This document shows positions 1-30,838 of a DNA stretch of 32,396 nt, in pieces. The position numbers and the translations under genes were made by a program. The number at the start of each line of letters is the position of its first letter. Position 1 is the first letter of the stretch. Origin of the DNA: a virus (taxonomy: Duplodnaviria > Caudoviricetes); the IMG/VR virus record IMGVR_UViG_3300016649_000049, positions 1 through 32,396 of that record; one strand, given 5' to 3'. A model generated the notes under the pieces. It did not search any database and had not been told where the DNA came from. It was given only the letters and a program-made list of their open reading frames with translations.

Positions 1-595
1 AAAACTATGGGACTATTCTATTGTGTGTTTATTCTTATTTTTGGTTTTTGTGTGTGGCACATTCTTTCCGAACACTAGCACCAAAGAAAAAATAAGACAA
101 AACACTATTGAAGAAATAAGGAAGATAGGTTTCTTTGAACCTAAAGTTGATAACACATCAAGCGATAAGTTTATTCAAAGTATGGTTAAGTGTATTGCTT
201 ACCATAATTTAAACTTAGAAAAAAACGAGCAAGTTCCAACTGTTCTAATAATTGCACAAGCGATTGTAGAATCTAATTATGGAACAAGTAGATTTGCTGT
301 GGAAGGCAACAACTTATTTGGAATAAGAGTTTGGGGTACAACTCATGGAATGTTGCCATTAAAACAAGACCCATCAATCAAATGGAGAGTTAAAATCTAC
401 AAGACTAAATGCCATTCAGTAAAAGGTTATATAGACACATTAAACCATAATCATCACTACGCAGAATTTAGACAATTAAGACAAAGAACTAAAAACCCTA
501 TTAAATTAGTAGAAACATTAGATAATTATTCTACTTCACAAACTTACCAAACTGAGATAATCGCCATGATAAACAAGATTAAAAACAAAATATAA
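1..595 (+). CDS. GH73 glucosaminidase (Bax/FlgJ-like peptidoglycan hydrolase) with N-terminal hydrophobic anchor; 3' part of a gene that starts at 32374
   Basis: Motif AQAIVESNYGTSRFAVEGNNLFGI and a YST..Y motif near the C-terminus. The frame is open back to position 2 and continues from ATG 32374 across the junction (MNSKILSIKLWDYSIVCLFLFLVFVCG...). Confidence 0.85.
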   Translation, partial: KLWDYSIVCLFLFLVFVCGTFFPNTSTKEKIRQNTIEEIRKIGFFEPKVDNTSSDKFIQSMVKCIAYHNLNLEKNEQVPTVLIIAQAIVESNYGTSRFAVEGNNLFGIRVWGTTHGMLPLKQDPSIKWRVKIYKTKCHSVKGYIDTLNHNHHYAEFRQLRQRTKNPIKLVETLDNYSTSQTYQTEIIAMINKIKNKI

Positions 596-711
596 TGGCT
601 AACGAGACTACATCATCATCACTAAGCAAACTTTATACAAACAAAGTTAAAGTTAAAGGAACTTACAAAGTCTTTAAACCAAAGCCATTAAAAATGCCTA
701 AAAAGAAATGA
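595..711 (+). CDS. 38-aa basic peptide whose N-terminus copies the major capsid protein N-terminus
   Basis: MANETTSSSLSKLYTNKVKVKGTYKVFKPKPLKMPKKK*. TAATG overlap with the upstream stop and ATGA overlap with the next ORF. 13/16 identity to MCP residues 1-16. Confidence 0.85.
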   Translation: MANETTSSSLSKLYTNKVKVKGTYKVFKPKPLKMPKKK

Positions 712-875
712 AAAAACCTATTTGGAAAACCAAAAGACCAGCAAGACTTGGTAAACCAAAACCATTTAATACTAAATCAAAAGCTTATAAAAAAGCTAGA
801 CGTTCAGCAGGTCAAAAGTTCGGCAAAAAAAACAGCTTTGTTAAGAACCTTTATATCGCCAAGAAACTTAAATGA
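708..875 (+). CDS. 55-aa highly basic protein
   Basis: MKKPIWKTKRPARLGKPKPFNTKSKAYKKARRSAGQKFGKKNSFVKNLYIAKKLK*. ATGA overlaps at both ends; no acidic residues. Confidence 0.8.
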   Translation: MKKPIWKTKRPARLGKPKPFNTKSKAYKKARRSAGQKFGKKNSFVKNLYIAKKLK

Positions 876-1195
876 ACTTAGACAAATTATTCTTTGGAAG
901 CAGGGTAATTAAAGTTGATTACATAGACAAGGAAGTTGCCGACAAGAAAAAAATCTTCGGTGAGTTCTGCTCTAACAAAAACATTCTCACAATAGACAAA
1001 ACACTAGAACCTATTGAAATGACCAACACTATAATCCACGAGATATTCCATATGCTAAACGAAGAATACAAAACAGATTTATCAGCAAAAGCAGAAGAAT
1101 TAGTATGTAACTCACTAGCTAATGGTCTTTGTCATACCCTTTACCAGAACCAAGAATTATTAGACTTTCTTTACAAATCTCTAAAAAGAGATTAA
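872..1195 (+). CDS. HExxH metallopeptidase-like protein (ImmA/IrrE-like fold)
   Basis: NTIIHEIFHML motif with a downstream EELVC Glu; FGEF...I.ID segment upstream. Confidence 0.65.
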   Translation: MNLDKLFFGSRVIKVDYIDKEVADKKKIFGEFCSNKNILTIDKTLEPIEMTNTIIHEIFHMLNEEYKTDLSAKAEELVCNSLANGLCHTLYQNQELLDFLYKSLKRD

Positions 1196-1225: not shown

Positions 1226-1654
1226 ATGGGTAAAGACATACTAGTAATAGACAATAATAAACCTATTGGTAGACCAACTTTTGCGTTTACACCAGAAGTT
1301 TTAGATAAAATAGAAAAACTAGCTTCAATTATGTGTACCTTACAAGAAATAGGCGACATTATTGGTTGTTCACACGACACAATTCAAAGAAATCAAAAAG
1401 CCAAAGAAGCAATTAAACGTGGAGTTGCTAACGCAAAACAAACCATTAGAAAAACTCAATTTGATATAGCTACTAAACTCAATTCAAGCATAATGGCTAT
1501 GTGGCTAGGCAAAGTTTATCTTGGTCAAACTGACAAAGTACAAAATACTGATGATAATGTACCACTACCAATCTATGACATTGTTGATGACCAAAAAGAA
1601 GTTATTGAATTAAAGGAAGTGCAAAATGATACCATTCCCAAACAAGAAATATAA
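1226..1654 (+). CDS. terS: Terminase small subunit (HTH DNA-packaging protein)
   Basis: GRP motif, HTH (CTLQEIGDIIGCSHDTIQR) and MAMWLGKVYLGQ motif; lies upstream of terL. Confidence 0.7.
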   Translation: MGKDILVIDNNKPIGRPTFAFTPEVLDKIEKLASIMCTLQEIGDIIGCSHDTIQRNQKAKEAIKRGVANAKQTIRKTQFDIATKLNSSIMAMWLGKVYLGQTDKVQNTDDNVPLPIYDIVDDQKEVIELKEVQNDTIPKQEI

Positions 1655-3011: not shown

Positions 3012-3617
3012 ATGATTAAAGCTTTTGTAACTGGTTGTGATTCTAATTTTACTGACATCTTAGATTGGTTTTTAAATGGCTACCATAAGCATATTAAGAT
3101 TCCATTATATATAGCCAACTTCGGCTTCTTAAAACAATATCCTAATTCATTCTTAGTTGCATCTGATGGAAGGACTTGGTTTTATAAACCTAAAGCTATT
3201 GAGAAAGTTCCTGCAACACAAATCATCTGGTTAGATTGCGATATAGAGATCAAAGAAGATATATCTGATTTATTTGATATGCTTAATGATTGCGATTATC
3301 TTATGAGTAAAGACCATGCAGTAAGAAGCGATAGATGGCAAACAGGAATAGTCGGCATAAACAATAAACAAGTTTTAACTAAATGGTTTGATAGATGCGA
3401 AATGAGACAAGAACGATCAGATCAAGAAGCATTTGCCAAAGTAGCACATGAGTTTAAAATTAACAGAATACCTGACAACTATCATGGTTTAAGATTAGGT
3501 AAGAATAATGATATAGCTAAAACAATACATTGGACTGGAGAAGATGGAAAAAAAATCATTAGAGAGAAGATTCGTAAGCAAGAACAGGAATCCAAACATA
3601 ATTTCAGCACCAATTAA
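3012..3617 (+). CDS. GT-A fold glycosyltransferase (nucleotide-diphospho-sugar transferase, GT8/GT77-like)
   Basis: FVTGCD start, WFYKP, IIWLDCD (DxD), QTGIV, SDQEAF and IHWTG motifs. Confidence 0.8.
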   Translation: MIKAFVTGCDSNFTDILDWFLNGYHKHIKIPLYIANFGFLKQYPNSFLVASDGRTWFYKPKAIEKVPATQIIWLDCDIEIKEDISDLFDMLNDCDYLMSKDHAVRSDRWQTGIVGINNKQVLTKWFDRCEMRQERSDQEAFAKVAHEFKINRIPDNYHGLRLGKNNDIAKTIHWTGEDGKKIIREKIRKQEQESKHNFSTN

Positions 3618-4452
3618 ATACATCAAGTATTCAAATCAGTTTAATAATTGGTTACATTTAAAAGTTAGATCAGAACGAGATAACTTATACCTGAATGACA
3701 ATCTAGCAAATCGGCGATTAAAAACATTACCTGATATTGATAATTTATTTAACCCATTAATCGTATGGGCTAGTGATAGTTTAATTTGTATCTTTGGTAA
3801 TAAGCGATTAAAGACAGCTATTGATAAAGGATATACGCATATTGATTGTTTAGTTTATGAGAACTTTAATCAAGCAGTTAGAATAGGAACTTCTATTTGG
3901 AATACATTTAAAGAACATGGATTATCTAAAGTTGATTATTTATTAACAACTGATAATCAAGCCACTACAAATATAAATAGATTTATGGTGGAAGAAAAAC
4001 AACTCATTGAAGAATACGCAACACACCAACAAGTCTTAATCCAAGAAGCTTTAAAATGTAATGAAGATATAATGGAAACTGGTTGTGGTTATTATTCAAC
4101 ACCATTATTAGTTGAGATAGCAAAGTCTAAAGGAATTAAGTTAATAGGATTTGTTCAGGATATAAACTGGGCTAGAAGATTTGACTATTTAATAGGTTCA
4201 CATTATCAGCAAATACAAATAGACTTTAAACAAGAAATACCATTAACACAAAGATTTGGAATGTGCTTCTTAGATCACGAGCAATTTGTTAAAGATAGAA
4301 TCAAACATCTAAACAATATATTAGAACATACCAACACAGTTGTAGTACATGATGCTGATAAAGTTGAATCTTTTGCGTTGCTACACAAACCTTATACGAT
4401 TGAAATGCACAAACACTTAATACCTAATACAGCAGTAATTAGAAATGTTTAA
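3544..4452 (+). CDS. ParB/Srx-like domain fused to a class I SAM-methyltransferase-like domain
   Basis: N-half: FNPLIV...FGNKRLKTAIDKGYTHIDCLV (ParB-like). C-half: YATHQQVL..IMETGCGYYSTP..CFLDH..VVVHD (motif I-like ExGxG). Confidence 0.65.
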   Translation: MEKKSLERRFVSKNRNPNIISAPIKYIKYSNQFNNWLHLKVRSERDNLYLNDNLANRRLKTLPDIDNLFNPLIVWASDSLICIFGNKRLKTAIDKGYTHIDCLVYENFNQAVRIGTSIWNTFKEHGLSKVDYLLTTDNQATTNINRFMVEEKQLIEEYATHQQVLIQEALKCNEDIMETGCGYYSTPLLVEIAKSKGIKLIGFVQDINWARRFDYLIGSHYQQIQIDFKQEIPLTQRFGMCFLDHEQFVKDRIKHLNNILEHTNTVVVHDADKVESFALLHKPYTIEMHKHLIPNTAVIRNV

Positions 4453-4990
4453 TCCATACGAATACTTTAAAGGCAAGAATGTTTTACTCATAGGTAATGG
4501 TGAGAAATTAGGAACTATTGATTATAGCAAGTTCAATTCAATCGTAAGAATGAATCTTGGAGTTCAAGACAAACCCTGTGATGTTTGGATTAACAATCTA
4601 GTACACGAGGGACATAATATGCTTAAAGAGATTCCACAGATACGTTGCATTGTAAGACTCAACTTTGAAAAAGACGGCAAGAGAGCAGAACGTATGCCTG
4701 ATTGGGTTAAGAAAAAAGCTTGGTTATGGAACAAAGAAGAATTTAACTTAATGACACAAAGATATAACTATCAAAGACCAACGACTGGTTTTGTATCAAT
4801 CTATTGGCTACTCAATCATTGTCAATGCAAAGTAACAATTACAGGATTTGATTTCTTTAAAACCAAGAATAGATATACAATGGAAGAAGTACATCATATT
4901 GGAACTAGTAAAGGTTATAATCACGACATGGAACTAGAACAAAATGTTATTACTAAACTTATTCAAAGAGGAATAATTAATGCCATTTAG
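4445..4990 (+). CDS. GT29/sialyltransferase-like Rossmann protein
   Basis: KNVLLIGNG..IDYSKFNSIVRMN (sialylmotif L-like), RPTTGFVSI..VTITGFDFF (motif S-like), H...E (HDMELE, motif VS-like). Confidence 0.7.
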   Translation: MFNPYEYFKGKNVLLIGNGEKLGTIDYSKFNSIVRMNLGVQDKPCDVWINNLVHEGHNMLKEIPQIRCIVRLNFEKDGKRAERMPDWVKKKAWLWNKEEFNLMTQRYNYQRPTTGFVSIYWLLNHCQCKVTITGFDFFKTKNRYTMEEVHHIGTSKGYNHDMELEQNVITKLIQRGIINAI

Positions 4991-6212
4991 CAAACCACAA
5001 TTAGAAGTTTATAAATGTCCAAAAAGATTTAGAGTTCTTATTACAGGAAGAAGGTTCGGCAAGACTCACTTAGCCATGTATGAACTATTAAGATTTGCAA
5101 GTCGTAAACCTAACTCAAAGATATTCTATGTAGCACCAACTTATAGAATGTCTAAAGAGATTATGTGGAAACAAATCAAGAAACTTACTACTGAAAAAAG
5201 ATGGATTAAATATGCTAATGAAACAGAACTAACATTAATACTTAGAAATGGTAGCCAGATAAGTTTAAAAGGTGCTGACAAATCTCCTGATAATTTACGA
5301 GGAGTTGGATTAGACTTTTTACTACTAGACGAATACGCAGATATACCAGTAGAGGCTTGGACAGAAGTTCTTAGACCAACTATTTCAGATAAACACGTAA
5401 CAGGTAATGTTTTGTTCATAGGAACACCAAGAGGATTTGGTAACTGGTCTTATGAGATTTACCAGAAGGGTTTAGGAGATGATAACGAATGGAAGTCATT
5501 TAAGTATACTACATTAGATGGTGGTCAAGTTGATGCAGAAGAAATAGAACAAGCTAAAAAAGATTTAGACGAGAGAACTTTTAGACAAGAGTATTTAGCT
5601 TCATTTGAAACATACTCAGGAGTTGTTTATTATAACTTTGATAGAGAACAAAATGTCAAAGAATGTAGCTATGATAAAGATGCTATTATTCATATTGGCT
5701 TAGACTTTAACATAGACCCAATGTCAGCTTGTTTATTTCATGTTAAGAATAACATAGCTTATATCTTTGATGAGATAGTTATTTATAGTTCTAATACTGA
5801 TGAATTTGTTGATGAACTGTTAAGCAGATACCTTAAAAATAAAATGATTGTTTATCCTGACCCAGCTTCAAGACAACGCAAAACTTCTGCTGGGGGAAGA
5901 ACCGATCTTACCATCTTGCAAAATGCTGGTTTAAATGTTAAAGCTAAGAATACTCATGCTTTGGTAAGAGACAGGATTAATGCTGTTAATAGTAAGCTGA
6001 AGTCATTTGATGGAAAAAGAAGTATTTTTATTAATCCTTCTTGCAAAACACTAATTAATAGCTTAATGAAACAAGTTTATAAAGAAGGTACAAATCAACC
6101 TGAGAAAAATAATGGATATGACCACATGACTGATGCACTAGGTTACGCAATAGAGTACATATTCCCAATCACATCAAACTTACCAAAATCAGAACCTAAG
6201 AGATTTTCATAA
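4980..6212 (+). CDS. terL: Terminase large subunit
   Basis: Walker A GRRFGKT, YVAPT, LRG..LDFLLLDE Walker B, GTPRG, and nuclease motifs GLDFN..P and DHMTDALGY. Confidence 0.97.
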   Translation: MPFSKPQLEVYKCPKRFRVLITGRRFGKTHLAMYELLRFASRKPNSKIFYVAPTYRMSKEIMWKQIKKLTTEKRWIKYANETELTLILRNGSQISLKGADKSPDNLRGVGLDFLLLDEYADIPVEAWTEVLRPTISDKHVTGNVLFIGTPRGFGNWSYEIYQKGLGDDNEWKSFKYTTLDGGQVDAEEIEQAKKDLDERTFRQEYLASFETYSGVVYYNFDREQNVKECSYDKDAIIHIGLDFNIDPMSACLFHVKNNIAYIFDEIVIYSSNTDEFVDELLSRYLKNKMIVYPDPASRQRKTSAGGRTDLTILQNAGLNVKAKNTHALVRDRINAVNSKLKSFDGKRSIFINPSCKTLINSLMKQVYKEGTNQPEKNNGYDHMTDALGYAIEYIFPITSNLPKSEPKRFS

Positions 6213-7609
6213 TGGCTTACACAAGAAAAGATATAGAACAACAGCACTCACAATACAAAGGTATGATGCCAAGATGGGAATACTACATCAGATCATATTT
6301 AGGTGGCAAAGAATACCAAGACGGAAAGTTCCTACAAGAATATCAACTAGAATTAGAATCAGAATATTTTAAAAGACTTGCATACACACCACTAGATAAT
6401 CATGCAAGAAACGTAATAGACATTTACTCATCATTTTTATTTAGAGTATTACCAACTAGAGAATTAGGTTCTTTAGCTGATGATATGTCAGTAGAACAAT
6501 TTTTAGATGATGCAGATTTAGAAGGTAGATCATTTAATGCTTTGATGAGAGAAGCACAAAACTACGCATCTGTGTATGGACATTGTTGGATTATGGTAGA
6601 TAAACCATCTGTCAATGTTATGACACGTGGAGAAGAACTAGAACAAGGAATTAGACCATACCTAAACATCTATACACCTGAGAATATCTTAGACTGGAAA
6701 TACACAAGAGCAGAAACAGGTTATTATTATTTAGAATATTTAAAAATTAGAGAATGTATTGAAGATGATGGCGAATACTACAAGATTTGGTATTTAGATA
6801 AAGTTGATACAGTATTCTTACCAACTGCAAATAGAGATGAACCTAAACTTATTGAATCATTACCTAATCCACTTGGAAAAATACCTGCTGTTATTCTTTA
6901 CAATCAAAGAAGTCCAATGCGAGGTATTGGAGTATCTGATTTAACTGACATAGCTGACTTACAAAAATCTATTTACAATGAACTATCTGAGATTGAACAA
7001 ATTATAAGATTATCTAATCACCCATCATTAGTTAAAACTAGAGATACTGAAGCTGTTGGTGGTGCAGGTTCTATTATAGAAATTCCTGACAACATAGATG
7101 CAAACTTAAAACCTTATATCTTACAACCAAGTGGAAGTAATTTAGATGGAGTTATTAAATCTATTATGCACAAAGTAGATGCAATCAATAGACTATCTCA
7201 TGTTGGTGCTATTAGAGCAACAGGAGAGAGAATACAATCTGGTATAGCACTTAGAACTGAGTTCCAATTACTTAATGCTAGACTTGCACAAAAAGCAAAA
7301 CTAATGGAACACGCAGAAGAACAAATTTGGAGACTATTTGCATTATGGCAAGAAACAATATTTGATGGAGAAGTAGAATATCCTGATACATTTGACATTA
7401 GAGATTGGGCTACTGATTTAGAATTATTACAACAAGCAAAAGCTTCTAATATTAAATCTACAACTTTTAACAAAGAACTAGATAAACAAATTGCAAGAAC
7501 AGTAATTGAAGAAGATGATATGTTAGAAGTAATAGATCAAGAGATTGATACCAATACACAAGCTTTAGGTGAGTTTGCACAACAACCAATAACTTTACCG
7601 ACAGTTTAA
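6212..7609 (+). CDS. Portal protein (SPP1-like)
   Basis: Follows terL; 465 aa; YGHCWIMVD, PNPLGKIPAV and QSGIALR motifs. Confidence 0.9.
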   Translation: MAYTRKDIEQQHSQYKGMMPRWEYYIRSYLGGKEYQDGKFLQEYQLELESEYFKRLAYTPLDNHARNVIDIYSSFLFRVLPTRELGSLADDMSVEQFLDDADLEGRSFNALMREAQNYASVYGHCWIMVDKPSVNVMTRGEELEQGIRPYLNIYTPENILDWKYTRAETGYYYLEYLKIRECIEDDGEYYKIWYLDKVDTVFLPTANRDEPKLIESLPNPLGKIPAVILYNQRSPMRGIGVSDLTDIADLQKSIYNELSEIEQIIRLSNHPSLVKTRDTEAVGGAGSIIEIPDNIDANLKPYILQPSGSNLDGVIKSIMHKVDAINRLSHVGAIRATGERIQSGIALRTEFQLLNARLAQKAKLMEHAEEQIWRLFALWQETIFDGEVEYPDTFDIRDWATDLELLQQAKASNIKSTTFNKELDKQIARTVIEEDDMLEVIDQEIDTNTQALGEFAQQPITLPTV

Positions 7610-9403: not shown

Positions 9404-10261
9404 ATGGCAAATGAAACAACAAGTTCAACATTAAGTGAACTTTTTACGAATATAACTCAAGAAGCTATATTCACATTCCAAGAAACTTCAGTTATGAGAC
9501 CACTTGTGACTACTTACCCAATAAGTGGTTCTGGTAAAACTATTGAAGTTCCTGTGTACCCAACAATTAGTGCATCAGCAGTAAACGAAGCTTCTGATTT
9601 ATCTAATACAGCAGTAAACCCTACTTCAGCTACTATCACAGCTTCAGAAGTTGGTGTTATGACAACTTTAACTGACTTAGCTAGAGATTCAGCTAGTCGT
9701 AATGTTGGTGCTGATATTGGAAAATTGTTTGGTGAAGCAATCGCTAAAAAAGTTGATACAGATTTAACTGCATTACTTGATGACTTTGCATCTGCAAACG
9801 ATCAAGGTGGTGCTGGAACTGAATTAACTGCTGACTTGCTTTTCAAAGCACAAGCAATATTAAGAACTGCAAATGTACCTGCACCTTACTATGCTGTGTT
9901 TCACCCTAAAGCAACTTTCAATTTAAAGAAAACTTTGACTCAACCAGCTTACACAACTACAAGTTCTGGTTATTCAATTTCTGAAATTGGAAATGAAGCT
10001 TTAAGAAATGGATATATCGGTAGAATTGCTGGTATTGATATTTTTGAAAACGCAAACATTTCTATTGATGCTTATGATGATTCTTGGGGTGGTGTATTTC
10101 ACCCTCAATCTTTAGGTCTTGCTCTTAAAGAGGACTTTAAAGTTGAATCACAACGTGACGCAAGTTTACGAGCAACAGAAATAGTTAGTAGCATAACTTA
10201 CGGAGTAGGTGTTCTTAAAGATACTTATGGTGTAAGTGTTAAAACTGATACTGCTCTTTAA
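9404..10261 (+). CDS. Major capsid protein (HK97 fold)
   Basis: GKTIEVP, E.SDL, GEAIAKKVD, FHP and G.IGRIAGIDIFE motifs; follows the scaffold. Confidence 0.93.
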   Translation: MANETTSSTLSELFTNITQEAIFTFQETSVMRPLVTTYPISGSGKTIEVPVYPTISASAVNEASDLSNTAVNPTSATITASEVGVMTTLTDLARDSASRNVGADIGKLFGEAIAKKVDTDLTALLDDFASANDQGGAGTELTADLLFKAQAILRTANVPAPYYAVFHPKATFNLKKTLTQPAYTTTSSGYSISEIGNEALRNGYIGRIAGIDIFENANISIDAYDDSWGGVFHPQSLGLALKEDFKVESQRDASLRATEIVSSITYGVGVLKDTYGVSVKTDTAL

Positions 10262-11669: not shown

Positions 11670-12056
11670 ATGGCAACTCATACTGGTTCAGAAGGAACGA
11701 TCAAAGTTAGCACTACAACAGTAGGCGAACTTAGAAGTTATACTTTAGACCAATCTGCTGACACTATTGAAGATACTTCAATGGGGGATTCAGTAAGAAC
11801 TTATAAAGCTGGTTTAAAAGCTTGGTCAGGTTCGGCTTCATTATTTTTTGATGAGACTGATGCTGGTCAATTACTTTTAGTTTTAGGAACTGAAATAGCA
11901 TTAAAAGTTTACCCTGAAGGTGCTTCATCTGGTGATAAATATTACTATGGTCAAGCAATCATTACTGGTAGCAATATATCTGCATCTTTTGATGGAATGG
12001 TAGAAGCAGAAATTACATTTACTGGAACAGGTGCATTAACTTTAGGAACTGCATAA
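11670..12056 (+). CDS. Major tail tube protein
   Basis: EDTSMGD..RTYKAGLKAWSGS and FTGTGAL; AGGAG SD. Confidence 0.85.
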   Translation: MATHTGSEGTIKVSTTTVGELRSYTLDQSADTIEDTSMGDSVRTYKAGLKAWSGSASLFFDETDAGQLLLVLGTEIALKVYPEGASSGDKYYYGQAIITGSNISASFDGMVEAEITFTGTGALTLGTA

Positions 12057-12082
12057 TTAATTATTAATTAGAAAAGGAAGAT

Positions 12083-12418
12083 ATGAACGTAATAGATAGG
12101 GTTAAAAGTCAATTTGAATCTTTAGGTATTAAAAAGATTGAGGTAGCTGAATGGGGCGAGGAAGGCAAACCTTTAACAATATATTCATCACCAATAACTT
12201 TAGCTGAAAAAAGAAACTTATTTAAAGGTGCTAAGAATGATGATCTAGGAGTATTAGTAGATGTTATTGTTCTTAAAGCAAAAGATTCAGAAGGAAATAA
12301 AATTTTTAAATTAGATGATAAGCAAGTTTTATTGAATAATGCTGATACTAATGTTATAGCTAGAGTAGCAACAGAAATTTTATCTGGTGTTTCTTATGAG
12401 GAAGCTGAAAAAAAGTAA
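12083..12418 (+). CDS. Tail assembly chaperone (gpG-like)
   Basis: Between tube and tape measure; IEVAEWG motif; ends GAA AAA AAG TAA. Confidence 0.85.
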   Translation: MNVIDRVKSQFESLGIKKIEVAEWGEEGKPLTIYSSPITLAEKRNLFKGAKNDDLGVLVDVIVLKAKDSEGNKIFKLDDKQVLLNNADTNVIARVATEILSGVSYEEAEKK

Positions 12419-12594
12419 GATCTGATTCTGAGTTATATTCTATACTTGCTCTAGGTCAGGAATTAAAAAAAAGTATGGAAGAAATTTGTCTTATGACACA
12501 AGATGAATTTAATTATTGGATAGCTTATTTTAAAGTGAAGGCAGAACGAGAAAAACTACACTATGGCAGATCAGCAGTTAAAAATAAGAATTGA
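12409..12594 (+). CDS. -1 frameshift extension of the tail chaperone (gpGT-like)
   Basis: Slippery A AAA AAG at 12409-15. The -1 frame reads KKVRSDSELYSILALGQELKKSMEEICLMTQDEFNYWIAYFKVKAERE...KNKN*, with the typical EF..W.AYF motif. Confidence 0.85.
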   Translation, partial: KKVRSDSELYSILALGQELKKSMEEICLMTQDEFNYWIAYFKVKAEREKLHYGRSAVKNKN

Positions 12595-14353
12595 TGCAAT
12601 AGATAATGCTTCAAAAGCTTTAATAGAAGTTAAAAATCAATTAAAGGGATTAGGAAAAACAACAGATGATATTTCAACAAGTTTCTTTACACTTAAAAAT
12701 GCAATATTAGCATTTGCTACTGGTGCAACTATTAATGGTGTAATAAATCAAACAAAAAAATTTCAAGATTTACAAACTACTTTATCAAGAGTTACTGGTT
12801 CTGTTGAAAATGGAACACAAGTATTAAATTTTCTAATTGATACAACTAGAAAATCAACATTTAATGTTCAAGATTTAGCCAACGCATATATAACATTATC
12901 AACTGCTGGAATAGCACCTACTGAAAGACTTTTAAAAATATTTACTGATACTGCTTCTGCTTCAACAGATCAAATAGATACTTTAAATGATTTAACAAGA
13001 TTATTTGCTAAAGGTGTTCAAGGTGGATTAGGAATACAAGCATTAACACAATTAGTTTCAAAAGGAATACCAGCATTTAAAATATTAGAAAATGAATTAG
13101 GATTATCAAGAGATGGTATAGAAAAATTTGCAGAAACAACAAGAGGTGCAAATAGAATATTAGAAGCTTTATTAAATGGTTTAGAAAAATCATTTTCTGG
13201 TGCTACTGAAGCTAGAGCAGGTAATTTATCAACTGCAATTTCAAGATTAGGAAAAGAAACAGATTTAGTATTATTGAAGATTGGAGATCAAGGTTTAACT
13301 AAATCTGTAAATGATTTAGCTGATGCTTTTGCTTCATTAACAAAAGAAGGTGATCCTTTATTACAATTCTTAGGTAGTCTTACAAGTTTTTTTGCTGATG
13401 CAACTACTGGATTTATTAAATTCTCACAAGATGTCGCTAAAGCAATTAAACAAACAATAGGAGAAGAAATAAGAGATGTTAATAGAGCATTTGATTTGTT
13501 ATTAGGAAAAACTAGTAAAGCAAAAACAAGTGTATCTGGTACATTTACTTCACCAACAGAAATAACAGGTATATCTACTGGACTTCCAAAAACAGAAGCA
13601 CAACCACAACCATTATTAGATTTACAAGTTGTTTTAAAAAGAGTTATTGAAGATAATCAAAATAAAATAGATAGAATTAACGATTCATTTTCTACTACAA
13701 AAGGATTAACAAAAACAATAACTGAAACTTTAAATGCTGGTATAGGAGACTTTTCTCAAAAATTAGCTGAATCTATTGTATTAGGAAAAGAACTTTCAGA
13801 TGTATTTAGATCACTAACACAAAGTTTATTAGTATCTATTTTAAAACAAGCCATTGAATTAATTGCTAGAGAAACATTATTGTACTTTTGGAAACAATTA
13901 CAAACATCAGAACTATTTAAACAATTAGCTGTTGAAAAACAAATAACAGCAGAAAAAATACAACAAGCATCTATAACTTCTGCTTCTGGTGGTGGTGGGT
14001 TTTTAAGTACATTATTTAATATTGGTGCAAGTTTATTTACTGGTGGTGCAGGTGGTGGTTTTAATCCTGACATAGGTGGAATACCAGATACTTATGTTGG
14101 AATGGCAGAAGGTGGTGCTGTTAGAGGTGGTATGCCAATCACAGTTGGAGAACGAGGTAGAGAATTATTTATACCATCTACTAATGGAACTATTATTCCT
14201 AATCATAGTTTAGGTGGTGGAACAAATATTACATTTAATATTCAAGCAAATGATGTTAGAGGTATTAGAGAATTATTAATTGATAATAGAGCAACTATAA
14301 TTAACTTAGTTAATCAAGGTGCTAATGCAAAAGGAAAGTCTAATATAGTATGA
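12563..14353 (+). CDS. Tape measure protein
   Basis: IRIDAID start, tape-measure domain (L..L...GIPAF.IL) and C-terminal AEGG...VGERGRELFIP. Confidence 0.92.
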   Translation: MADQQLKIRIDAIDNASKALIEVKNQLKGLGKTTDDISTSFFTLKNAILAFATGATINGVINQTKKFQDLQTTLSRVTGSVENGTQVLNFLIDTTRKSTFNVQDLANAYITLSTAGIAPTERLLKIFTDTASASTDQIDTLNDLTRLFAKGVQGGLGIQALTQLVSKGIPAFKILENELGLSRDGIEKFAETTRGANRILEALLNGLEKSFSGATEARAGNLSTAISRLGKETDLVLLKIGDQGLTKSVNDLADAFASLTKEGDPLLQFLGSLTSFFADATTGFIKFSQDVAKAIKQTIGEEIRDVNRAFDLLLGKTSKAKTSVSGTFTSPTEITGISTGLPKTEAQPQPLLDLQVVLKRVIEDNQNKIDRINDSFSTTKGLTKTITETLNAGIGDFSQKLAESIVLGKELSDVFRSLTQSLLVSILKQAIELIARETLLYFWKQLQTSELFKQLAVEKQITAEKIQQASITSASGGGGFLSTLFNIGASLFTGGAGGGFNPDIGGIPDTYVGMAEGGAVRGGMPITVGERGRELFIPSTNGTIIPNHSLGGGTNITFNIQANDVRGIRELLIDNRATIINLVNQGANAKGKSNIV

Positions 14354-30694: not shown

Positions 30695-30838
30695 ATGCCA
30701 CTAAAGTTTGGATATAGTAAAAAAAGCATTTCTAAGAATATTGGTACTGAAATTAAACATGGCAAACCACAAAAACAAGCTGTGGCTATTGCTTTGAGTA
30801 TCGCTAGAGAAGCTAGAAAAAAAGCCAAGAAAAAATAG
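30695..30838 (+). CDS. 47-aa basic phage protein (MPLK..S...IS.NI..E...[11 protein letters not shown] family)
   Basis: AGGAG SD; [47 protein letters not shown]. Confidence 0.85.

What the first reader, a model, noticed from the sequence alone, without database searches (positions are those of the whole stretch)
595..711. A 38-aa peptide that mimics the major capsid protein N-arm and carries a polybasic tail
Seen: this uncalled, translationally coupled ORF starts MANETTSSSLSKLYTN, while the MCP 8.8 kb away starts MANETTSSTLSELFTN (13/16 identical). At the DNA level 9 of the 12 identical non-Met codons differ synonymously, including a TCA/AGT serine swap. The match therefore looks maintained at the protein level rather than being a recent duplication. 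After residue 16 it becomes KVKVKGTYKVFKPKPLKMPKKK. Established: the HK97-fold N-arm makes inter-subunit and scaffold contacts. Inference, three options: (a) a free N-arm that fills vacant arm sites, for example at the portal vertex, and tethers DNA by its basic tail; (b) a capsid-addressing tag for loading a DNA-condensing peptide; (c) a decoy for a host capsid-sensing defence protein or an assembly regulator. I know of no described system like this.
Basis: partly seen in the sequence, partly recalled or inferred. Interest (0 to 1): 0.88.

Follow-up and report, generated by a model that had tools for sequence, protein, structure and literature searches.

The report
Phage peptide copies its capsid's arm
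Relatives of phages that infect the abundant SAR11 bacteria carry a conserved tiny gene whose product starts with a copy of the first 16 residues of their major capsid protein and ends in a lysine-rich tail; it likely plugs into a vacant capsid-arm site of the head and would grip the packaged DNA, but no function has been tested.

Summary
In detail: ORF 595-711 matches the capsid protein (MCP) start at 13 of 16 residues, the next best six-frame match is 6 of 16, and 9 of 12 identical non-Met codons differ synonymously. It is a real gene. It was found in 70 of 80 terminase-anchored relatives (all 10 misses are truncated upstream) and in 4 of 4 near-complete genomes reached through the MCP. It is under purifying selection, and peptide-MCP silent sites are saturated. 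Marine relatives keep the arm core but have unrelated basic tails. T4 gp61.1 (hypothetical) shows the same design on an unalignable capsid N-terminus; this scan noted that design before on other DNA, and I confirmed the T4 likeness. Best reading (0.4): a minor head peptide that fills N-arm sites left empty at the portal vertex and tethers DNA. Main rival (0.3): a scaffold-addressed internal DNA-binding cargo. No binding or expression was shown. My ten literature searches found no description of it.

The parts
595..711 (+). N-arm-copy peptide gene, 38 aa, 11 K/R and 1 D/E
   Evidence: family; no PHROG or Pfam match
595..642 (+). Codons 1-16: copy of the MCP N-arm
   Evidence: 13 of 16 identical; the peptide-family profile also hits the MCP start, E 2.7e-6
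643..708 (+). Basic tail, with a KG[TS]Y[RK]V block (655-672) conserved in the freshwater clade and replaced in marine relatives
   Evidence: block pN/pS 0.08 (pattern-selected sample); other tails
9404..10261 (+). Major capsid protein, HK97 fold, no leader or delta domain
   Evidence: PHROG major head; AlphaFold2 model pLDDT 84; Foldseek hits to phage capsids
9404..9451 (+). MCP N-arm residues 1-16 (1-6 low confidence, 7-28 helix in the monomer model)
2..595 (+). Upstream glucosaminidase-domain gene, stop overlapping the peptide's start
   Evidence: PF01832
708..875 (+). Downstream 55-aa basic ORF of the same small-basic-gene cluster, ATGA overlap
   Evidence: overlap at -4 in 52 of the 52 resolved contexts among 59 distinct ones
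872..1195 (+). 107-aa HExxH (M78-like) gene; neighbour, does not co-occur obligately with the peptide
1226..1654 (+). Terminase small subunit (anchor for unbiased sampling)
   Evidence: phrog_309
6212..7609 (+). Portal protein (context for the favoured mechanism)
   Evidence: phrog_145, PF05133
8663..9397 (+). Separately encoded scaffolding protein (candidate partner in the rival reading)
   Evidence: phrog_206

Best explanation
The ORF is a conserved accessory gene whose first 16 codons encode a selected copy of the capsid protein's N-terminal arm; the peptide likely binds a capsid-arm pocket left vacant in the head lattice, most plausibly the five sites around the portal where the penton is missing, and its lysine-rich tail would contact packaged DNA. 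Shown: conservation, purifying selection, saturated silent sites against the MCP, arm core kept while tails are replaced, absence from some viable relatives. Inferred from solved capsids of other phages: that MCP residues 1-16 dock on neighbouring subunits after expansion and that five such docks lack a donor at the portal vertex. Untested: expression, presence in virions, binding to MCP, copy number, DNA contact.
For: (1) Gene status: 70 of 80 terminase-anchored loci carry it; the 10 misses hold only 1-710 bases upstream of the anchor, while the gene lies 469-2014 bases upstream (two of the 70 are a variant the script missed and I read from its listing). 201 protein clusters match the family profile. 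(2) The arm is the conserved part. In near-complete G015, G018 and G022, reached through their MCP, it is the top short ORF against the genome's own MCP arm (scores 40, 35, 35; next best 26, 28, 28, among 339-438 ORFs), with three tails unlike the window's. (3) Selection is strongest on the distal codons 2-7 (pN/pS 0.06, against 0.58 for codons 8-16). Leu13 is present in all 70 listed peptides (by inspection) and is invariant in 74 MCPs. (4) In solved phages the distal arm is ordered only in the mature shell: SaPI1 procapsid arm modelled from residue 26, virion arm from 16 (10.1101/2023.09.18.557803, passages); SPP1 arms unfold on scaffold release and pair antiparallel with the arm of the adjacent capsomer (PMC6813328, passages). 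(5) Gap-filling at the portal vertex is known: SaPI1 portal N-termini replace parts of the five missing subunits, and the P74-26 portal vertex protein threads an N-arm onto the MCP P-domain with Lys2 in the DNA minor groove (PMC12407722, passages). (6) T4 gp61.1 aligns to gp23 residues 57-93 at 17 of 37 and then runs into lysines, so the design recurs on an unalignable N-terminus.
Against: No cognate tracking: 10.4 vs 10.6 of 16 (14 cognate, 182 non-cognate pairs). Absent from cultured HTVC026P, HTVC111P and HTVC112P, doubtful in HTVC202P, and absent from DSL-LC06 and complete G044, so heads of this family can be built without it. The T4 portal-vertex paper reports the five portal-facing N-fists as disordered, and the passages I saw name no extra chain (PMC7136217). 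'61.1' does not occur in the main text of two 2026 T4 portal-neck papers. Mature N-arms lie on the outer surface while DNA is inside, so the tail would have to thread through the vertex. Marine peptides have lost residues 2-4 although their MCPs keep them. The position-by-position conservation of peptide and MCP correlates only weakly (rho 0.48, p 0.12, 12 positions). The 0.06 ratio is biased low because my pattern left out the shorter-start variants.
Confidence: 0.4

Rival explanations
1. The arm copy is an address label: it binds the scaffold (or the inner procapsid face) as the MCP arm does, and so loads a basic DNA-condensing or ejected peptide into the head in many copies, like T4 internal proteins.
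For: MCP N-termini bind scaffold in SPP1, P22, T7 and 80alpha procapsids (PMC6813328, passages). The copy includes the first turns of the predicted helix 7-28. The gene sits among other tiny basic ORFs. Being dispensable fits cargo: T4 IPI-III are non-essential (PMC9958956, passages). T4 gp61.1 starts with a leader like the T4 capsid targeting sequence (the CTS consensus is recalled).
Against: The strongest constraint lies on distal codons 2-7, outside the scaffold-binding helix of solved procapsids. The MCP's acidic residue 12 is Val or Lys in 109 of 119 listed peptides. No other small basic ORF of the window carries the label, unlike a shared targeting sequence.
Confidence: 0.3
2. The peptide is a transient assembly or expansion regulator: it occupies arm pockets on free MCP or procapsids and is pulled off by incoming DNA through its basic tail, timing nucleation or expansion.
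For: Arm unfolding and relocation drive expansion in SPP1 and T4. An arm copy joined to a DNA-binding tail has the parts needed to couple the two.
Against: No direct evidence. Patchy presence in close relatives argues against a central timing role.
Confidence: 0.12
3. It is an ordinary small basic DNA-binding peptide that arose from a duplicated MCP 5' end; the arm-like start is kept for its own stability or processing and no longer binds a capsid site.
For: No cognate tracking. The peptide consensus differs from the MCP at positions 8, 9 and 12. Many unrelated basic ORFs occupy the same clusters.
Against: The arm core survives saturated silent sites and complete tail replacement. All 19 peptides tested score higher on average against arms of their own clade than against distant MCPs (confounded by ancestry). 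The same design recurs in T4.
Confidence: 0.1
4. It is a decoy that titrates a host defence sensor or protease recognising the capsid N-terminus.
For: Capsid-sensing defences such as CapRel and Lit exist (recalled, no call). Patchy distribution would fit.
Against: A decoy does not need a basic tail, yet every variant seen has one. The gene is near-fixed in its clade, and its distal codons are conserved rather than diversifying. The host is not identified.
Confidence: 0.08

Closest known systems
T4 gene 61.1 product (54 aa, 'hypothetical protein', AF158101)
   Same: Separate small gene far from the head module, holding a copy of the MCP's mature N-terminal segment followed by lysines (17 of 37 identical to gp23 57-93).
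   Different: It has a leader and the gp23 cleavage region, and copies the T4 N-fist. The peptide here has no leader, its phage shows no prohead protease among the head genes scanned, and by inspection the two peptides share no motif. gp61.1 itself has no described function in my searches.
T4 internal proteins IPI-III with the capsid targeting sequence
   Same: Small, non-essential proteins brought into the head by an N-terminal signal (PMC9958956, passages and a reference title; their basic character is recalled).
   Different: The T4 signal is shared by several cargo proteins and is cleaved (recalled). Here the signal is the MCP's own uncleaved arm and sits on one peptide only.
Portal vertex protein (PVP) of Thermus phage P74-26
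   Same: Accessory chain at the portal vertex whose N-arm joins an MCP beta-sheet and touches DNA with a lysine (PMC12407722, passages).
   Different: PVP has a globular domain and is not described as an MCP sequence copy in the passages seen.
HTVC111P-type pelagiphages (HTVC026P, 111P, 112P, 202P)
   Same: Closest cultured relatives: MCP 52-55% identical, same head gene order, clusters of tiny basic ORFs.
   Different: Three lack the peptide; HTVC202P gp54 is only a weak candidate.

Membership tests
T4 gp61.1-like (phrog_1823/2086 as named by earlier scan notes) | Sequence match to the family profile | tested here: not met
   No PHROG hit at E 0.01
T4 gp61.1-like (phrog_1823/2086 as named by earlier scan notes) | Copy of own MCP's mature N-terminus followed by a basic tail (design) | tested here: met
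T4 gp61.1-like (phrog_1823/2086 as named by earlier scan notes) | Leader and protease site before the copy | tested here: not met
   The copy starts at Met1; only 4 in-frame codons lie upstream (open frame 42 aa)
T4 internal proteins with capsid targeting sequence | N-terminal signal shared by several cargo proteins | tested here: not met
   Only the MCP and this peptide carry the motif in the window
T4 internal proteins with capsid targeting sequence | Non-essential for head assembly | tested here: inconclusive
   Absent from 3 of 4 cultured relatives, but near-fixed in its own clade
T4 internal proteins with capsid targeting sequence | Packaged inside the virion in many copies | not testable with these tools
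   Needs virion mass spectrometry
Portal vertex accessory proteins (P74-26 PVP-like) | Ordered at the portal vertex in five copies, bound to MCP | not testable with these tools
   Needs cryo-EM; no solved relative of the peptide family
Portal vertex accessory proteins (P74-26 PVP-like) | Globular domain outside the aperture | tested here: not met
   Members are 32-42 aa with low-complexity tails
HK97-fold major capsid proteins (for gene 9404-10261) | HK97 fold with an N-terminal arm | tested here: met

The most novel reading that the evidence does not exclude
Tailed phages have repeatedly evolved a stand-alone copy of their capsid protein's N-arm fused to a polybasic tail. It is an overlooked class of head component that caps the arm sites orphaned by the portal and clamps or senses the packaged DNA there, present from SAR11-type phages to T4 (gp61.1) and missed because it is tiny, low-copy and lost in symmetry averaging.
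Probability: 0.3. Interest if true: 0.88.

Novelty: new variant of a known kind. Interest (0 to 1): 0.66.

Why it matters
How a 12-fold portal is sealed into a 5-fold vertex, and how small cargo proteins are addressed to a head, are open questions in phage assembly. A free copy of the capsid arm, seen here and in T4 on unalignable N-termini, points to a reusable docking site on HK97-fold shells. If it binds, a 16-residue tag would load cargo into phage heads, existing portal-vertex maps could be re-examined for an unmodelled chain, and the idea can be tested at the bench in T4 through gene 61.1.

Tried and rejected
Complex prediction, three copies of MCP 17-285 with the peptide: no verdict, score 0.00, controls not folded; this says nothing for or against binding. 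First AlphaFold2 model of the MCP from 30 sequences: too poor to use (pLDDT 53). RNA evidence: 8 runs held 5-8% of the words; four laid runs gave only short contigs of relatives and cannot show transcription. Functional link to the neighbouring HExxH gene: rejected, absent in G018 and G022 (which have the peptide) and present in HTVC112P (which lacks it). An arm-like stretch in the scaffold N-terminus: rejected as chance, 4 of 38 scaffold starts. Recent duplication or gene conversion: rejected, identical residues share a codon in 45 of 132 cognate and 654 of 1746 non-cognate cases. HTVC202P gp54 as a member: unresolved; second of 365 short ORFs (score 28, top 30), missed by both profiles, and a DNA pattern for it found one unrelated stretch. 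Host from genomes: 2 MAG contigs of unrelated taxa, uninformative. ESM Atlas: no hit at 0.8 or above. Promoter scan: 12 sites vs 9.2 +/- 3.2 expected. Metagenome pattern scan: 17 of 82 loci held a short ORF, 16 of them basic family members, none with an MCP on the locus, so no new pairs. Possible precedents read and set aside as not arm copies in the passages seen: Patience gp4 (PMC11965321), PhiM1 alpha-claw (PMC11440229), Douge cement protein (PMC13033339), phi24B, phi29 (PMC11922011). The search of 1.84 billion representatives and the wide structure search were not obtained, so more distant relatives of the peptide remain unexplored.

Full report
Observation. The 38-codon ORF at 595-711 is as described. 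It matches the start of the capsid gene at 9404 at 13 of 16 residues, 9 of the 12 identical non-Met residues use different codons, and Ser7 is TCA against AGT. The next best match to the MCP's first 16 residues anywhere in the six frames is 6 of 16, and the next best among 19,900 ORF-start pairs is 8 of 16. It overlaps both neighbours and has no PHROG, Pfam or PDB family.

Context. The window is a 32.4-kb virus record rated complete, 31% G+C, with terminase, portal, scaffold, MCP, tail tube and tape-measure genes. Its closest cultured relatives are HTVC026P, 111P, 112P and 202P (MCP 52-55% identical), called the HTVC111P-type group in 10.1101/2019.12.14.876532 (passages). Partial matches came from lake-water runs (small shares), so a freshwater SAR11 host is my inference; the host was not identified. 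The MCP is an HK97-fold protein without a leader. The AlphaFold2 model (pLDDT 84) has residues 1-6 unresolved and a helix at 7-28, and Foldseek places it among phage capsids.

It is a real gene. To avoid selecting on the peptide, I anchored on the terminase small subunit. Of 80 loci, 70 carry the peptide (68 flagged by the script, 2 variants read from its listing). The other 10 hold 1-710 bases upstream of the anchor, while the gene lies 469-2014 bases upstream, so two of them (681 and 710 bases) are ambiguous. These loci are related, not independent: they give 42 distinct 16-codon haplotypes once the shorter-start variants are dropped. Among those, pN/pS is 0.38 for codons 2-16, 0.06 for codons 2-7 and 0.58 for codons 8-16 (uncorrected, and the 2-7 figure is biased low by that exclusion). 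Lengths run from 32 to 42 residues. A profile search found 201 clusters among 2,877 candidates; the 120 listed carry no Pfam domain and no name beyond 'hypothetical protein'.

The likeness is kept at the protein level. In 14 same-contig pairs pS between peptide and MCP is 0.76 (saturated) and pN 0.32; identical residues share a codon in 45 of 132 cases, no more than in non-cognate pairs (654 of 1746). All four near-complete genomes reached through the MCP search (G003, G015, G018, G022) carry the gene. In G015, G018 and G022 it is the best short-ORF match to the genome's own arm, with tails unrelated to the window's, and it lies in other neighbourhoods. The lasting part is the Thr-Ser...Leu-x-x-Leu core plus a basic tail of any sequence.

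Results against the simple picture. Copies do not track their own MCP: 10.4 of 16 cognate against 10.6 non-cognate. The MCP arm is nearly invariant in this clade, so the test is weak, but it is not passed. Peptides do score higher against arms of their own clade than of distant MCPs in 19 of 19 cases, which ancestry alone could explain. The gene was not found in HTVC026P, HTVC111P, HTVC112P, DSL-LC06 or the complete G044, and HTVC202P gp54 is only a weak candidate. It is therefore an accessory gene. The peptide also departs from the MCP: positions 8-9 are mostly swapped and acidic residue 12 is mostly Val or Lys.

A parallel. Earlier notes of this scan described the same design in T4-like and other phages. 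I tested one claim: T4 gp61.1 aligns to gp23 residues 57-93 at 17 of 37 identities (pairwise E 6e-9) and continues into lysines. That spans the gp23 cleavage region and the N-fist (65 residues removed, N-fist 66-91, PMC7136217, passages). By inspection the T4 and SAR11-type peptides share no motif, so the design looks convergent (inference). I did not test the other notes.

Mechanism. In SPP1 the scaffold binds the N-terminal helix; on release the arm unfolds, moves outward and pairs with the arm of the adjacent capsomer (PMC6813328, passages). In SaPI1 the distal arm is ordered only in the virion, and portal N-termini stand in for parts of the five missing subunits (10.1101/2023.09.18.557803, passages). 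In P74-26 a portal vertex protein threads an arm onto the MCP and contacts DNA with a lysine (PMC12407722, passages). Because selection on the peptide is strongest in the distal residues, which by this analogy have a partner only in the expanded lattice, I favour docking in vacant arm sites, most simply the five at the portal, with the tail on DNA (0.4). The rival is a scaffold-addressed internal cargo like T4's internal proteins (0.3; PMC9958956, passages), which fits dispensability and the surrounding small basic genes. A transient regulator (0.12), a relic start on an ordinary basic peptide (0.1) and a defence decoy (0.08) follow. Against vertex filling, the T4 vertex passages mention disordered N-fists and no added chain, and mature arms face outward. 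None of expression, virion presence or binding is shown.

Novelty. Ten literature searches gave no paper describing a separately encoded capsid-arm copy. One listed paper holds the term gp61.1 once (PMC3468402, search listing only), and two 2026 T4 portal-neck papers do not contain '61.1' in the main text. The library lacks most subscription papers and I read no supplements, where virion proteome tables might list such peptides. It works like a minor head peptide addressed by its N-terminus, a known kind, but fails the membership tests for T4 internal proteins, gp61.1 and PVP, so I file it as a new variant. Interest 0.66: a surprising, recurring design that can be tested in T4, with the function still open.

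Noticed in passing
L206:29931-30216; L208:28828-28905; L209:29606-29674: Cultured HTVC111P-type genomes carry runs of coupled 22-36 aa ORFs with 44-59% Lys/Arg right after the lysin, not in their annotation. Candidate protamine-like head proteins.
   Followed up: no
window 708-875, 2313-2636, 30695-30838: Further small basic ORFs (55 aa, DUF6321, 47 aa) with patchy presence in relatives.
   Followed up: partly
L206:7040-7189 and equivalents after the terminase small subunit in L207-L209, L070, L074: A 49-52 aa basic ORF of marine relatives, some copies with a Val-Leu-Tyr...Lys-Gly-Thr stretch like the middle of the freshwater peptide; not seen among the window's basic ORFs. May be chance.
   Followed up: no
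window 872-1195: 107-aa HExxH gene with weak M78 peptidase and 'minor head/DNA pilot' hits, often directly downstream of the peptide but not co-distributed with it.
   Followed up: yes
window 11670-14353: Tail tube and 596-aa tape-measure genes, although the isolation paper classed these pelagiphages as podoviruses by microscopy; suggests a short non-contractile tail.
   Followed up: no
L106:17318-18079: A 254-aa MCP that jumps from residue 11 to about residue 41, deleting the N-terminal helix; probably an assembly artefact.
   Followed up: no
L287:2970-3131 vs L288:3946-5508: The gp61.1 leader aligns with gp23 residues 57-65 just before the cleavage site, hinting that T4's targeting leader is itself like a capsid-protein segment.
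   Followed up: partly
window 3012-4990: Glycosyltransferase-like genes (weak GT8, GT29) between the two terminase genes.
   Followed up: no
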